Source: the human T2T-CHM13v2.0 reference genome, Homo sapiens. Taken from it: DNA of 64,000 bases. The position numbers and the translations under genes were made by a program. This document shows, piece after piece, positions 1 through 31,569 of this stretch. The stretch's first letter is position 1. Each line of letters opens with the position of its first letter. The notes below the pieces were generated by a model, which was not told where the DNA came from, made no database searches, and saw only the letters and a list, made by a program, of their open reading frames with translations. The DNA is taken from assembly GCF_009914755.1 (NCBI RefSeq), contig NC_060946.1; one strand, written 5' to 3'.

Positions 1-189
1 AGGGGATCGGGGCCGGGCCGGGGCCGCGCTGCCTGCGATGCCGGGCGCCCGCCGCAGCCGCTGCCGCCGGAGCCCGGGATGGGGCGAGAGGCTGCGGCGG
101 ACGCCAGCATCTCCCCGCCGGGGACCCCGGGGGCCGCGGAGCCGCCGCCGCCGCTGCTGCCGCCGTTGCTGAGACCCAGCGGGCGATGG
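1..189 (+). other. MGAT3: MGAT3 non-coding exon 1 (5' UTR; may begin upstream of the window)
   Basis: Very CpG-rich sequence ending in the consensus donor TGG|GTGAGT (GT at 190). It pairs with the acceptor at 29966, just before the MGAT3 ATG. Confidence 0.85.
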
Positions 190-790
190 GTGAGTTGACC
201 CCGGCGTCCTGGGGGGCGCCGCGGCCCCTCTATCCCCGCGCTGCCCGCCCTCCCGCGCTGCGCTTGGCGCCCCCCGCCCGGCTCCGCGGCCCACTCCCCG
301 AGCGTGACCTTAGGGGGCGGGCGCGGGCGCACTGGGGCTGGGGGCCCGGAGGCCGCGGTGGGGGCGAGATGCCGGGGAAGCCGCTCGGCGCGGGCCCCCT
401 CCCCCTACCCGCCGCTCCTCCGAGCTCCCCGGTCCCCGGAGGGCAGAGCCTCAGCGCCCGACCCCCTCCCACGGCCGGGCGGGGGACGTCCCCGAGGCGC
501 GGGGCTCGAGCCGTGCTTTGTGCGCGGCACCCCCCAGCCTCCGGCGCGGCTCCCCCACAACCTCCGGCGCGGCGCGGGGCTGGGGTGGGAGGCCTCCGCG
601 CCCGCCTTCCCCACCCCCGACCCCAGACTGCGGCGGCGGCAGCCGAGGCCCAAGCGCAGTCGGGGGCTGGGCGGGTGCGGGGGCTGCGGCCGTAGCTACC
701 CCTGGGGACCAGGCAGAGGCAAATGTGGAGAGGGCCCCCGGCCATTTACCGGGGTGGGGGCCCCCGGCTCCTTGCATTGCTCTGCCCAGG
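1..790. promoter_or_regulatory. CpG island of the MGAT3 promoter/first exon
   Basis: Very high GC with dense CpG and GGGCGG boxes; CpG density drops beyond ~800-950. Confidence 0.85.
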
Positions 791-1680
791 GCGGGGGAGG
801 GAACCTGGCTGAGGGAGGGCGCTATAAATATCTGCAAATAGTGAGTTCTGGAACCGGGAGTGGGGAGGGGAGTGCGCCTGGGTGTGTGTATGGTGGGGTT
901 CCTGAGCTGGGGTGCAGCAGGAAGGGATGCCGCGCGGCCAGACCTAGTGGTCTGAGGTCGGATGACCCCCAGCCCCGGAAGATGCCCCTGAAGGCCCCTG
1001 ATGGGGTGTGGGCAGACACACTACCCCAGTGGGATTCCTCCCTGGTTGCCCACTTCATTCCTGGGACACACCAGTCCAGATTCGCCTTGATGGGGGAGTT
1101 GTGAGCACTGGCGTGTCGTTTGGGGAGGGGGAGCAGTTATGAAAGATCCAGACATGGAGCCCAGCAGAAGGATGGAGGGGAGAGCCCCCACCCCCAGGAG
1201 CTGCAGCTCTGAGGGGGTTTTCAGTCTAAGGAGTGCTAAGGGGAGCCGCTCTGGGTCCTAGGAAGGTTTGAAAGAGGGGTCCCAGCCCAGGAGGAAGAGA
1301 GAGGTTACTGGAAGAGATGACGACAGGAAGCTGCCAGAGATCTCTGGGTAGAGAAAGGTGGGAAGGGCGTTGTGGGCCAAGGGAATGGCATGAGCAAAGG
1401 CTCAGAGGTGTGAGTGTCTGGCGTGTGTTGAGAGGTGGCAGTGGGAACAGTCAGGCACTGTGGGTGCCCCCTGGAAGAAGTGAGATGAAAACGGGGCAGA
1501 GGCTGGGCAGGGAGGCCAGGTGGAGGTGAGGTGGGAGGGCACAGCAGGGAGCTGGCACTTGGTCCTGAGGACGGCAGGGAGCCAAGACCTGGCTGGGGGG
1601 ATGCCGCTGGCTCAGACCCATTCTAAGGGTCTGCCTGGTGCCCTTGGTGTGGTCAGGGCTACTTGAGGCACACTGGTGAT

Positions 1681-1998
1681 TCCTTTTTCTTTTCTTTTCT
1701 TTTCTTTTCTTTTTTTTGAGATGGAGCCTCACTCTGTCGCCCAGGCTGGAGTGCAGTGGTGCCATCCTGGCTCACTGCAACCTCTACCTCCTGGGTTCAA
1801 GCAATTGTCCCACCTCGGCCTCCCGAGTAGCTGGGACCACAGGTGCCCGACACCACACCCGGCTAATTTTTGTATTTTTAGTAGAGATGGGGTTTCACCA
1901 GGTTGGCCAGGCTGGTCTCGAACTCCTGACCTCAAGTGATCCACCCACCTTGGCCTCCTAAAGTGCTGGGATTACAGGCGTGAGCCACCTCGCCCAAC
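1681..1998 (-). mobile_element. Alu (S-like)
   Basis: T-rich tail followed by reverse-complement Alu consensus. Confidence 0.9.
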
Positions 1999-28764: not shown

Positions 28765-29420
28765 ATTTTTTTTTTTTTTTTTTAGATGGAGTCTTGCTCT
28801 TGTCACCCAGGTTCTGGAGTGCAATGGCGTGATCATGGCTCACTGCAACTTCCGCCCCCTGGGTTCAAGTAATTCTCCTGCCTCAGCCGGTATAGCTGGG
28901 ATTATAGGCATGCGCCACTACACTCAGCTAACTTTTGTATTTTTAGTAGAGACAGGGTTTCACCATGTTGGCCAGGCTGGTCTCGAACTCCTGACCTTGT
29001 GATCTGCCCACCTCGGCCTCCCAAAGTGCTGGGATTATAGGCGTGAGCCACTGCACTGGCCGACCTCAAATTTTTATGCCTGGAGATTAGTAAAGGGCAT
29101 GGAATAATGAAGGGGAACTTTTATTTTATTTTGTTTTTGAGATAGGGTCTCAGTCTGTTGTCCAGGCTGGGGCGCAGTGGTGCAATCATGGCTCACTGCA
29201 GCCTCAACCTCGAGGTCTCAAGTGATCCTCCCACCTCAGCCTCCTAAGTAGCTGGGACCACAAGCACATGGCACCACACCTGGCTAATTTTTAAATTTTC
29301 TGTAGAGATGGGGTCTCACTATGTTGTCCAAGCTGGTCTCAAACTCCTGGGCTCAAGTGATCCTCCTGCCTCAGCCTCTGAAGGTGTTGGGATTACAGGC
29401 GTGAGCCACCACGCCTGGCC
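28765..29420 (-). mobile_element. Two Alus (~28765-29061 S-like with TSD GACCTCAAATTTTT; ~29118-29420 J-like)
   Basis: Reverse-complement Alu copies. Confidence 0.88.
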
Positions 29421-29967
29421 TAATTTTATTCATTAAATATGTTAGAATTAAGTGTTTTCCCTTGAGACCTGTGAGTTTTTTCAGTGAAAAAATATTCAAA
29501 AGGTTTGTCAGTATGTCCATAAAAAAGAAGATAGGAGGGGAGGGACAGGACCCAGGAGGGCAGCCTACAGCCTGCTCTCCCCGTTCTGTCCTGGGGCGGA
29601 GTCTGTACTGCGAGTTGAGCTTTTCCCAAGGCGCATGTTACTCCTGGAGCCAAGCCTAGCAGTGCAGCCGCACAGTCAGGGTGGGGTGGGCCAGGCGGAG
29701 AAGCAGGCTGCAGAGGGGGCAGGGTGGTGGCCTGGGGATCTCAGGGAAGGGCTATGGGAGCACGGCGGTGTCCTCAGTGCTGGGGCTTTCAGGGGCCTTG
29801 GTACCGCGAGTTGACTCTTGGGGGCAGGAGGTCACTCCATGCAGGGGCAGCAGGTGCTGGCCACCACATTGTCCAGCAAGGTGGCAGCAGAGGCCTCCTA
29901 GGTCCCCTTCCTAGGAAAGGAGCCTGGGCTGCCCTGATGAGTCTCCTGTCTCTCTCTCTCCCGCAGG

Positions 29968-31569
29968 ATGAAGATGAGACGCTACAAGCTCTTTCTCATG
30001 TTCTGTATGGCCGGCCTGTGCCTCATCTCCTTCCTGCACTTCTTCAAGACCCTGTCCTATGTCACCTTCCCCCGAGAACTGGCCTCCCTCAGCCCTAACC
30101 TGGTGTCCAGCTTTTTCTGGAACAATGCCCCGGTCACGCCCCAGGCCAGCCCCGAGCCAGGAGGCCCTGACCTGCTGCGTACCCCACTCTACTCCCACTC
30201 GCCCCTGCTGCAGCCGCTGCCGCCCAGCAAGGCGGCCGAGGAGCTCCACCGGGTGGACTTGGTGCTGCCCGAGGACACCACCGAGTATTTCGTGCGCACC
30301 AAGGCCGGCGGCGTCTGCTTCAAACCCGGCACCAAGATGCTGGAGAGGCCGCCCCCGGGACGGCCGGAGGAGAAGCCTGAGGGGGCCAACGGCTCCTCGG
30401 CCCGGCGGCCACCCCGGTACCTCCTGAGCGCCCGGGAGCGCACGGGGGGCCGAGGCGCCCGGCGCAAGTGGGTGGAGTGCGTGTGCCTGCCCGGCTGGCA
30501 CGGACCCAGCTGCGGCGTGCCCACTGTGGTGCAGTACTCCAACCTGCCCACCAAGGAGCGGCTGGTGCCCAGGGAGGTGCCGCGCCGCGTCATCAACGCC
30601 ATCAACGTCAACCACGAGTTCGACCTGCTGGACGTGCGCTTCCACGAGCTGGGCGACGTGGTGGACGCCTTTGTGGTGTGCGAGTCCAACTTCACGGCTT
30701 ATGGGGAGCCGCGGCCGCTCAAGTTCCGGGAGATGCTGACCAATGGCACCTTCGAGTACATCCGCCACAAGGTGCTCTATGTCTTCCTGGACCACTTCCC
30801 GCCCGGCGGCCGGCAGGACGGCTGGATCGCCGACGACTACCTGCGCACCTTCCTCACCCAGGACGGCGTCTCGCGGCTGCGCAACCTGCGGCCCGACGAC
30901 GTCTTCATCATTGACGATGCGGACGAGATCCCGGCCCGTGACGGCGTCCTTTTCCTCAAGCTCTACGATGGCTGGACCGAGCCCTTCGCCTTCCACATGC
31001 GCAAGTCGCTCTACGGCTTCTTCTGGAAGCAGCCGGGCACCCTGGAGGTGGTGTCAGGCTGCACGGTGGACATGCTGCAGGCAGTGTATGGGCTGGACGG
31101 CATCCGCCTGCGCCGCCGCCAGTACTACACCATGCCCAACTTCAGACAGTATGAGAACCGCACCGGCCACATCCTGGTGCAGTGGTCGCTGGGCAGCCCC
31201 CTGCACTTCGCCGGCTGGCACTGCTCCTGGTGCTTCACGCCCGAGGGCATCTACTTCAAGCTCGTGTCCGCCCAGAATGGCGACTTCCCACGCTGGGGTG
31301 ACTACGAGGACAAGCGGGACCTGAACTACATCCGCGGCCTGATCCGCACCGGGGGCTGGTTCGACGGCACGCAGCAGGAGTACCCGCCTGCAGACCCCAG
31401 CGAGCACATGTATGCGCCCAAGTACCTGCTGAAGAACTACGACCGGTTCCACTACCTGCTGGACAACCCCTACCAGGAGCCCAGGAGCACGGCGGCGGGC
31501 GGGTGGCGCCACAGGGGTCCCGAGGGAAGGCCGCCCGCCCGGGGCAAACTGGACGAGGCGGAAGTCTAG
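29968..31569 (+). CDS. MGAT3: Beta-1,4-mannosyl-glycoprotein 4-beta-N-acetylglucosaminyltransferase (GnT-III, bisecting GlcNAc, GT17), 533 aa, whole CDS in one exon
   Basis: Long ORF with strong GC3 bias. Type II Golgi anchor (MKMRRYKLFLMFCMAGLCLISFLHFF), Pro-rich stem and DxD motif (IDDADEIP). The acceptor tctctctcccgcag|G lies immediately before the ATG. Confidence 0.98.
   Translation: MKMRRYKLFLMFCMAGLCLISFLHFFKTLSYVTFPRELASLSPNLVSSFFWNNAPVTPQASPEPGGPDLLRTPLYSHSPLLQPLPPSKAAEELHRVDLVLPEDTTEYFVRTKAGGVCFKPGTKMLERPPPGRPEEKPEGANGSSARRPPRYLLSARERTGGRGARRKWVECVCLPGWHGPSCGVPTVVQYSNLPTKERLVPREVPRRVINAINVNHEFDLLDVRFHELGDVVDAFVVCESNFTAYGEPRPLKFREMLTNGTFEYIRHKVLYVFLDHFPPGGRQDGWIADDYLRTFLTQDGVSRLRNLRPDDVFIIDDADEIPARDGVLFLKLYDGWTEPFAFHMRKSLYGFFWKQPGTLEVVSGCTVDMLQAVYGLDGIRLRRRQYYTMPNFRQYENRTGHILVQWSLGSPLHFAGWHCSWCFTPEGIYFKLVSAQNGDFPRWGDYEDKRDLNYIRGLIRTGGWFDGTQQEYPPADPSEHMYAPKYLLKNYDRFHYLLDNPYQEPRSTAAGGWRHRGPEGRPPARGKLDEAEV

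What the first reader, a model, noticed from the sequence alone, without database searches (positions are those of the whole stretch)
79..30098. Hidden 80-aa overlapping uORF in spliced MGAT3 mRNA (ATF4 uORF2-like)
Seen: ATG at 79 has a strong Kozak context (gggATGg) and is open for 37 codons to the donor at 189. It continues in phase 0 into exon 2 (29967) and ends at TAA 30096-30098, overlapping the first ~43 MGAT3 codons out of frame. Peptide: MGREAAADASISPPGTPGAAEPPPPLLPPLLRPSGRW|DEDETLQALSHVLYGRPVPHLLPALLQDPVLCHLPPRTGLPQP. A genomic ORF track misses it because it spans a 29.8 kb intron. Established: out-of-frame overlapping uORFs strongly repress the main ORF and can confer eIF2alpha-P responsiveness. 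Inference: bisecting-GlcNAc synthesis may be translationally gated, or a microprotein may be made. I do not recall a description of this.
Basis: partly seen in the sequence, partly recalled or inferred. Interest (0 to 1): 0.75.

Follow-up and report, generated by a model that had tools for sequence, protein, structure and literature searches.

The report
Ordinary overlapping upstream ORF in MGAT3
The 80-codon reading frame that starts in MGAT3's first exon and runs across the intron into the coding exon is really there, but it is what the GC-rich sequence would give by chance, is one of three upstream start codons, is not built like the ATF4 switch, and has no translation evidence in the catalogues I could check.

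Summary
ATG79 opens 37 codons to the donor at 189 and continues in phase into exon 2 (29967). It ends at TAA 30096-30098, 131 nt into the MGAT3 coding sequence and out of frame.

It is not more than chance:
- 79% of 3000 dinucleotide shuffles of the 84%-GC exon 1 give such an overlapping ORF.
- Synonymous resampling keeps the overlap frame open at least this far in 57% of draws.

ATG38 is the first AUG; its 44 codons end at 172, so it encloses ATG79. ATG186 opens a 2-codon ORF whose stop overlaps the main ATG. Because the ORF from ATG38 ends after ATG79, ATF4-type delayed reinitiation onto ATG79 is impossible. The real ATF4 leader, in this same window, shows the required layout.

ATG79 has a strong context: 94 on a scale where the optimal Kozak site is 100. 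If transcription starts upstream, it probably captures ribosomes and dampens MGAT3 synthesis constitutively.

MGAT3 is absent from the GENCODE list of 7,264 Ribo-seq ORFs and from the Ji 2015 tables. Conservation could not be tested. Verdict: an unverified new member of a common class; low interest.

The parts
38..172 (+). uORF-A: the first AUG of the leader, 44 codons, stop TGA 170-172. It shares the MGAT3 frame but is closed. It encloses ATG79. Its peptide has 18 Arg in 44 residues.
   Evidence: Context score 69 (bounds 64-75). No ATG lies between -578 and 38.
79..189 (+). Exon-1 part of the flagged overlapping ORF: 37 codons, ending exactly at the donor.
   Evidence: P0001. Context score 94 (bounds 86-102).
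186..189 (+). Start of uORF-C, a 2-codon ORF (Met-Gly-stop) that crosses the splice junction. Its TGA at 29969-29971 overlaps the main ATG.
   Evidence: Context score 95 (bounds 88-103).
190..29966 (+). Intron 1 of the selected MGAT3 transcript, with a GTGAGT donor and a pyrimidine-tract plus CAG acceptor.
   Evidence: and the hub's gene table.
29967..30098 (+). Exon-2 part of the overlapping ORF: 43 codons plus TAA. It is offset by one base from the MGAT3 frame.
   Evidence: P0002.
29968..31569 (+). MGAT3 coding sequence, 533 codons. Further in-frame ATGs lie at 29974, 29998 and 30007.
   Evidence: The main-ATG context scores 79 in the spliced mRNA and 101 in the proximal-start transcript.
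29937..30098 (+). In the other annotated transcript (start 29844), the only upstream ATG opens a 53-codon ORF. It uses the same overlap frame and ends at the same TAA.
   Evidence: Context score 80 (bounds 74-87).
1..23 (+). 3' end of a G-run tract (-35..23) with G-quadruplex-like spacing, 15 nt upstream of ATG38. A second such tract lies at -229..-191, outside the window.
   Evidence: regular-expression scan only; no structure was tested.

Best explanation
The ORF is a by-product of composition that most likely acts as a constitutive translational dampener. It is neither a switch nor a protein gene.

The distal MGAT3 leader is 546 nt long, 84% GC and very stably folded. It carries three upstream AUGs, one in each frame.

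Inferred from the scanning model:
- Some 43S complexes start at AUG38 (moderate context). They translate through AUG79 and stop 18 nt before the main AUG. That is too close, and comes after too long an ORF, for efficient reinitiation.
- Complexes that leak past AUG38 meet AUG79 in a strong context. They translate 80 codons and terminate 131 nt inside the coding sequence, so they are lost to MGAT3 synthesis.
- The remainder meet AUG186 (strong context, 2 codons, stop overlapping the main AUG) or the main AUG itself.

The net effect would be low MGAT3 output per distal-promoter mRNA.

Shown here: the anatomy, the context strengths, and that the ORF is at chance level. Inferred, not shown: that ribosomes use AUG79, and how large the repression is.
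For: - Anatomy of the three upstream AUGs and their stops.
- No further ATG for 578 nt upstream of the window.
- Measured-context scores of 69, 94, 95 and 79 for AUG38, AUG79, AUG186 and the main AUG, where optimal Kozak is 100.
- Exon 1 has a minimum free energy of -372 kcal/mol.
- Overlapping uORFs are a recognised class, expected to repress more strongly than contained uORFs. The GENCODE catalogue reports 432 replicated ones, stated to be 62.8% of the class: roadmap preprint, passages.
- The exon-1 promoter is a working promoter. Methylation at its start site tracks MGAT3 expression and bisecting GlcNAc: Kohler 2016, passages. Klasic 2018 found differential methylation in the same CpG island.
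- The chance tests explain why the ORF exists without any selection for it.
Against: - There is no direct evidence that AUG79 is used. MGAT3 has no entry among the 7,264 GENCODE phase I Ribo-seq ORFs in Sandmann 2023 supplementary file 1, where the rows pass directly from CBX7 to MIEF1. It has none in the Ji 2015 supplementary tables either.
- These absences are weak evidence. MGAT3 expression is restricted. It reads about 0.05-0.2 expression units in SH-SY5Y and is missing from the HEK293T tables of Sidrauski 2015.
- AUG38 shields part of the ribosome flow from AUG79.
- CpG-island promoters often start transcription over a broad zone, and starts downstream of 79 would remove the ORF. That point comes from general knowledge and was not measured here.
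- The fold energy is no lower than that of composition-matched shuffles (z = -0.13).
- Conservation of ATG79 in other mammals could not be examined.
Confidence: 0.55

Rival explanations
1. The ORF is open on paper but hardly ever translated, and has no measurable effect. Ribosomes would be captured by AUG38, blocked by structure, or loaded on transcripts that start downstream or at the proximal promoter.
For: - The chance-level statistics.
- Absence from the GENCODE phase I list and from the Ji 2015 tables.
- AUG38 precedes and encloses ATG79.
- A second annotated start at 29844 lacks exon 1 (hub table).
- Hamster also has a distal and a proximal Mgat3 promoter, 25,481 bp apart (PMC8276764, passages).
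Against: - AUG38 has only a moderate context (69), so leaky scanning to a strong AUG79 (94) is expected.
- The exon-1 transcript is the RefSeq selected one (hub table).
- Its promoter's methylation tracks expression.
- The catalogues under-sample tissues that express MGAT3.
Confidence: 0.3
2. The leader is a stress-responsive gate. eIF2alpha phosphorylation, or a change in start-codon stringency, lets ribosomes pass AUG79 and raises MGAT3 synthesis, so bisecting-GlcNAc output is tuned translationally.
For: - An out-of-frame overlapping ORF with strong context is the inhibitory element of the ATF4 design.
- Leaders with several repressive uORFs can still be induced under stress, as in IBTKalpha.
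- Both MGAT3 leaders feed the same overlap frame.
Against: - The positive-acting short uORF that ends upstream of the overlapping AUG is missing (against ATF4).
- Bypass of the CHOP type is associated with weak uORF context, whereas AUG79 and AUG186 are strong.
- No paper in the library links MGAT3 with uORFs, ribosome profiling or ISR translation.
- The one ISR translatome table I could search does not contain MGAT3.
Confidence: 0.08
3. The 80-residue product, or the 43 residues shared with the proximal-transcript ORF, is a functional microprotein.
For: - Two transcripts with different leaders both open the same frame and end at the same stop.
- Some overlapping uORFs do yield independent proteins (roadmap preprint, passage).
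Against: - The ORF length is at chance level.
- No Pfam family matched at E up to 1.
- The sequence is of low complexity: 18 Pro and 14 Leu in 80 residues. The highest 19-residue hydropathy is 0.87, so no membrane segment or signal peptide is apparent.
- In the exon-2 part, two of every three bases are fixed by the MGAT3 amino-acid sequence.
- It is not in the catalogues searched.
- One in three upstream ATGs would fall in this frame by chance.
Confidence: 0.03

Closest known systems
ATF4 uORF2, whose start lies in this same window at 63378
   Same: An AUG-initiated ORF in a good context that overlaps the main coding sequence out of frame. It also starts in one exon, 5 nt before the donor, and continues across an intron.
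   Different: ATF4 has a 3-codon uORF1 (63279-63290) that ends 87 nt upstream of the uORF2 AUG, plus an AUG-stop at 63216. That layout is what makes the switch work. In MGAT3 the only upstream ORF (38-172) encloses ATG79, so reinitiating ribosomes never meet it.
GENCODE 'uoORF' class of Ribo-seq ORFs, e.g. the MGAT4B uoORF c5riboseqorf133
   Same: An upstream ORF that overlaps the coding sequence in another frame. The MGAT4B example belongs to another N-glycan GlcNAc-transferase gene, spans two exons (204 nt) and is labelled conserved.
   Different: Members of the catalogue have ribosome-footprint support. The MGAT3 ORF is not in that list.
Single inhibitory uORF of CHOP (DDIT3), bypassed under eIF2alpha phosphorylation
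   Same: A repressive uORF upstream of the coding sequence that scanning ribosomes must pass.
   Different: The CHOP bypass is attributed to a weak start context. ATG79 scores 94 and ATG186 scores 95 against an optimal 100. According to the cited description, the CHOP uORF does not overlap the coding sequence out of frame.
Multi-uORF repressive leaders such as IBTKalpha
   Same: Several upstream AUG ORFs that together lower basal translation.
   Different: The IBTKalpha uORFs are reported as well conserved and were tested by reporter mutagenesis. Nothing of the kind exists for MGAT3 in the library searched.

Membership tests
Upstream overlapping ORF (uoORF, GENCODE nomenclature) | The start codon lies in an annotated 5' UTR exon of a protein-coding transcript. 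| tested here: met
   ATG79 lies in exon 1 (-356..189) of the selected transcript (hub table).
Upstream overlapping ORF (uoORF, GENCODE nomenclature) | The ORF ends inside the main coding sequence, in a different frame. | tested here: met
   TAA 30096-30098, 131 nt after the A of the main ATG, frame offset 2.
Upstream overlapping ORF (uoORF, GENCODE nomenclature) | Ribosome-footprint evidence of translation. | tested here: inconclusive
   MGAT3 is not among the 7,264 phase I ORFs nor in the Ji 2015 tables. It is barely expressed in some of the profiled cells. No raw footprint data were available.
ATF4/GCN4-type delayed-reinitiation switch | An inhibitory ORF that overlaps the coding sequence out of frame. 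| tested here: met
   definition.
ATF4/GCN4-type delayed-reinitiation switch | A short, positive-acting 5'-proximal uORF that terminates upstream of the inhibitory ORF's AUG, with a spacer for re-acquiring the ternary complex. | tested here: not met
   The only upstream AUG is at 38 and its 44-codon ORF ends at 172, after ATG79. For comparison, ATF4 has a 3-codon uORF1 and an 87-nt spacer.
ATF4/GCN4-type delayed-reinitiation switch | Preferential translation of the main ORF when eIF2alpha is phosphorylated. | tested here: inconclusive
   The Sidrauski 2015 supplementary tables list ATF4 and MGAT1 but not MGAT3. A library search for MGAT3 with 'integrated stress response' found 7 papers, 6 listed, and none of the listed titles or abstract openings concerns translational control of MGAT3.
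CHOP-type uORF bypass | A weak initiation context of the inhibitory uORF. | tested here: not met
   ATG79 scores 94 and ATG186 scores 95 (optimal 100). Only ATG38 is moderate, at 69. The feature is as stated.
Functional microprotein | Sequence conservation as a protein, a domain match, or peptide evidence. | tested here: inconclusive
   Pfam gave 0 families for the two halves and the composition is of low complexity. Conservation cannot be tested with these tools because no other mammalian genome is held. The one mass-spectrometry benchmarking supplement I searched gave 0 hits even for the control term MIEF1, so it tells nothing.

The most novel reading that the evidence does not exclude
Both MGAT3 leaders send ribosomes into the same out-of-frame ORF ending at TAA 30096. 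These are the distal exon 1 through ATG79 and the proximal start through ATG29937. On this reading the overlap frame is a promoter-independent brake on bisecting-GlcNAc synthesis. Its strength would be set by start-codon stringency, stress, or the shielding uORF at 38. The 43 shared residues might also be made as a peptide.
Probability: 0.1. Interest if true: 0.5.

Novelty: new member of a known kind. Interest (0 to 1): 0.15.

Why it matters
MGAT3 sets the level of bisecting GlcNAc, which shapes IgG effector function and tumour glycan phenotypes. Its control has been studied at the level of promoter methylation. If the three upstream AUGs strongly damp translation, MGAT3 mRNA levels would be a poor proxy for enzyme levels. 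Promoter choice, distal or proximal, would then also change protein yield. Even so, this would be one more case of a very common mechanism. Nothing here opens a long-standing question.

Tried and rejected
Catalogue and paper look-ups that gave nothing usable:
- Not held: Mudge 2022, Duffy 2022, Chothani 2022, Hofman 2024, Chen 2020, Johnstone 2016, Vattem and Wek 2004.
- McGillivray 2018: its supplement is held only as a 60-character stub.
- Community mass-spectrometry benchmarking supplement: 0 hits for MGAT3 and for two peptide substrings, but also 0 for the control MIEF1, so it is uninformative.
- Supplements of bioRxiv preprints are closed, including the human-brain Ribo-seq preprint, which may list this ORF.

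Other points:
- The search for the GnT-III 'multiple promoters' work found only a general sentence in a 2004 review. Koyama et al. 1996 on the multiple MGAT3 promoters is recalled, not seen.
- RNA structure as a special feature was rejected. The minimum free energy is -372 kcal/mol, but z = -0.13 against shuffles.
- An N-terminal extension of MGAT3 from ATG38 was rejected. ATG38 is in frame, but the frame is closed by TGA 170-172.
- Nonsense-mediated decay triggered by an exon junction downstream of the stop was considered and set aside by inference. The overlapping ORF stops in the last exon, and the ORF from ATG38 stops 17 nt before the only junction.
- Conservation could not be tested, because only the window's own genome and prokaryotic genomes are held.
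- I did not search for the junction peptide, because joined sequence may not be typed into a call.

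
Full report
**1. The observation**

The window is chr22:39928001-39992000 of the assembly. ATG79 sits in cccgggATGg and is open for 37 codons, ending exactly at the donor tgg|GTGAGT at 189/190. Exon 2 begins at 29967, after a pyrimidine tract and CAG. The main MGAT3 ATG is at 29968. The ATG79 frame continues for 43 codons to TAA 30096-30098. 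The overlap with the MGAT3 coding sequence is 131 nt, out of frame.

**2.

I fetched the part of exon 1 that lies outside the window (L001). The annotated exon 1 (-356..189) is 546 nt long and 83.9% GC. It holds exactly three ATGs, one in each frame.

- **ATG38** (gcgATGc) opens 44 codons and stops at TGA 170-172. It shares the MGAT3 frame but is closed.
- **ATG79** is the flagged ORF.
- **ATG186** (gcgATGg) opens a 2-codon ORF that crosses the junction. Its TGA at 29969-29971 overlaps the main ATG.

No other ATG lies between -578 and 38. AUG38 therefore stays the first AUG even if transcription starts somewhat upstream of the annotated site. ATG79 lies inside the ORF that starts at 38.

The second annotated transcript starts at 29844. 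Its only upstream ATG, at 29937, opens a 53-codon ORF in the same overlap frame, ending at the same TAA.

**3. Is it more than chance?**

No.

- Exon 1 has 1, 1 and 0 stop codons in its three frames.
- In 3000 dinucleotide-preserving shuffles of exon 1, the mean ATG count is 3.2 against 3 observed. In 79% of the shuffles at least one out-of-frame upstream ATG gives an ORF that overlaps the main ATG.
- The MGAT3 coding sequence has a GC3 of 0.91. The overlap frame has only 7 stops in 534 codons, with gaps of 44, 24, 70, 178, 9, 71 and 49.
- With the protein kept and synonymous codons redrawn from the gene's own usage, the frame stays open to codon 43 or beyond in 57% of 20,000 draws.
- A purine at -3 together with G at +4 is expected at 24% of positions from composition alone.
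- The leader folds at -372 kcal/mol, which is no better than its shuffles (z = -0.13).

**4. Start-site strengths**

The table of all 65,536 contexts in Noderer et al. 2014 (supplementary file 2; 100 = GCCACCAUGGG) gives these values:

| Start codon | Score | Bounds |
|---|---|---|
| AUG38 | 69 | 64-75 |
| AUG79 | 94 | 86-102 |
| AUG186 | 95 | 88-103 |
| Main AUG, spliced mRNA | 79 | 72-86 |
| AUG29937 | 80 | 74-87 |
| Main AUG, proximal-start transcript | 101 | 93-109 |

The paper notes that an AUG at -5..-3 lowers output. That is the position of AUG186 relative to the main AUG.

**5. Mechanism**

This section is inferred from the scanning model.

- Ribosomes that start at AUG38 read through AUG79 and stop 13 nt before AUG186 and 18 nt before the main AUG. 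Reinitiation after 44 codons over so short a spacer should be poor; this rests on established knowledge and was not tested here.
- Ribosomes that leak past AUG38 meet the strong AUG79 and end 131 nt inside the coding sequence. They are lost to MGAT3 synthesis.
- The rest meet AUG186 or the main AUG.

The leader as a whole should give low, constitutive translation.

The ATF4 analogy fails on the defining point. [quoted passage not shown] 2014, passages). The true ATF4 leader in this window shows an AUG-stop at 63216, uORF1 (3 codons) at 63279-63290, and the uORF2 AUG at 63378, 87 nt further on. MGAT3 has no ORF that ends before ATG79.

CHOP-type bypass is tied to a weak uORF context, which ATG79 does not have.

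**6. Evidence of translation**

Sandmann et al. 2023, supplementary file 1, lists the 7,264 GENCODE phase I Ribo-seq ORFs.

- It has no MGAT3 entry.
- Control terms are found there: MIEF1, MGAT1, MGAT2, MGAT4B and MGAT5.
- The chromosome 22 rows pass directly from CBX7 to MIEF1.
- File 3 of that supplement was cut when stored. File 1 was not flagged as cut.

Other sources:

- The Ji et al. 2015 supplementary tables have no MGAT3 or NM_002409.
- In Rodriguez et al. 2019 (SH-SY5Y cells), MGAT3 appears only in the expression table, at about 0.05 and 0.21, and not in the uORF table.
- The Sidrauski et al. 2015 HEK293T tables lack MGAT3.

These absences are real but weak, because the gene is little expressed in the cells profiled. 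Several catalogues could not be read; they are listed under Tried and rejected.

**7. Is it in print?**

| MGAT3 searched with | Papers holding both terms (listed) |
|---|---|
| uORF | 2 (1) |
| 'upstream open reading frame' | 3 (2) |
| Ribo-seq | 3 (2) |
| 'ribosome profiling' | 3 (3) |
| 'integrated stress response' | 7 (6) |

None of the listed papers deals with an MGAT3 uORF. For one of them I read the passages, and it mentions Mgat3 only as a neighbour of Atf4. For the others I saw only titles and the opening of the abstract.

OpenProt states that it holds all ATG ORFs of at least 30 codons on RefSeq and Ensembl transcripts. The ORF should therefore be listed there by construction. This is an inference; I did not see the entry.

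**8. Context**

- The exon-1 CpG-island promoter is functional. Methylation at its start site tracks MGAT3 expression and bisecting GlcNAc (Kohler et al. 2016, passages). Klasic et al. 2018 found differential methylation in the same CpG island (passages).
- In hamster a distal Mgat3 start site lies 25,481 bp upstream of the proximal promoter (Shamie et al. 2021, passages). The two-promoter layout is therefore shared with a rodent.
- Overlapping uORFs are a named class. The GENCODE catalogue reports 432 replicated members, stated to be 62.8% of the class. One of them is a spliced, 'conserved' uoORF in MGAT4B.

**9. The peptide**

No Pfam family matched either half, or the peptide from ATG38, at E up to 1. 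Of the 80 residues, 18 are Pro and 14 Leu. The highest 19-residue hydropathy is 0.87. Nothing suggests a folded or membrane-bound product.

**10. Verdict**

The sequence feature is real and correctly described. It is statistically unremarkable and only partly read, being one of three upstream AUGs. The ATF4-like label is wrong as a mechanism.

The best reading is a constitutive dampening ORF of a very common kind, whose translation is still unverified. Conservation, start-site usage and footprints are the missing tests.

Noticed in passing
window 63216-63382 (+): The first ATF4 exon of the selected transcript shows the textbook leader. There is an AUG-stop (ATG TAG) at 63216-63221 and uORF1 (3 codons) at 63279-63290. 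The uORF2 AUG at 63378 lies 5 nt before the donor, so ATF4 uORF2 also spans an intron.
   Followed up: partly
L001 771-809 (window -229..-191) and window -35..23: Two long G-run tracts on the mRNA strand of MGAT3 exon 1 have G-quadruplex-like spacing. The second ends 15 nt before ATG38. This was a regular-expression scan only.
   Followed up: no
window 38-172 (+): The peptide of the first uORF is extremely basic, with 18 Arg in 44 residues. Whether such a nascent chain slows ribosomes on this leader was not examined.
   Followed up: no
window 186-189 + 29967-29976 (+): The 2-codon uORF stops on a TGA that overlaps the main ATG. A second in-frame MGAT3 ATG (29974) follows 2 nt after that stop. 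Reinitiation there would give a protein two residues shorter.
   Followed up: no
window 29937-30098 (+): The proximal-start transcript (from 29844) has a single upstream ATG. It falls in the same overlap frame as ATG79 and shares its stop. One in three ATGs would do so by chance.
   Followed up: partly
window 44919-47163 (MIEF1 leader): The GENCODE list in Sandmann 2023 carries a 19-residue MIEF1 uORF (c22riboseqorf42) labelled 'primatomorpha - young' and an internal out-of-frame MIEF1 ORF. The 70-residue MIEF1 microprotein is shown there as already annotated. I did not map these onto window coordinates.
   Followed up: no
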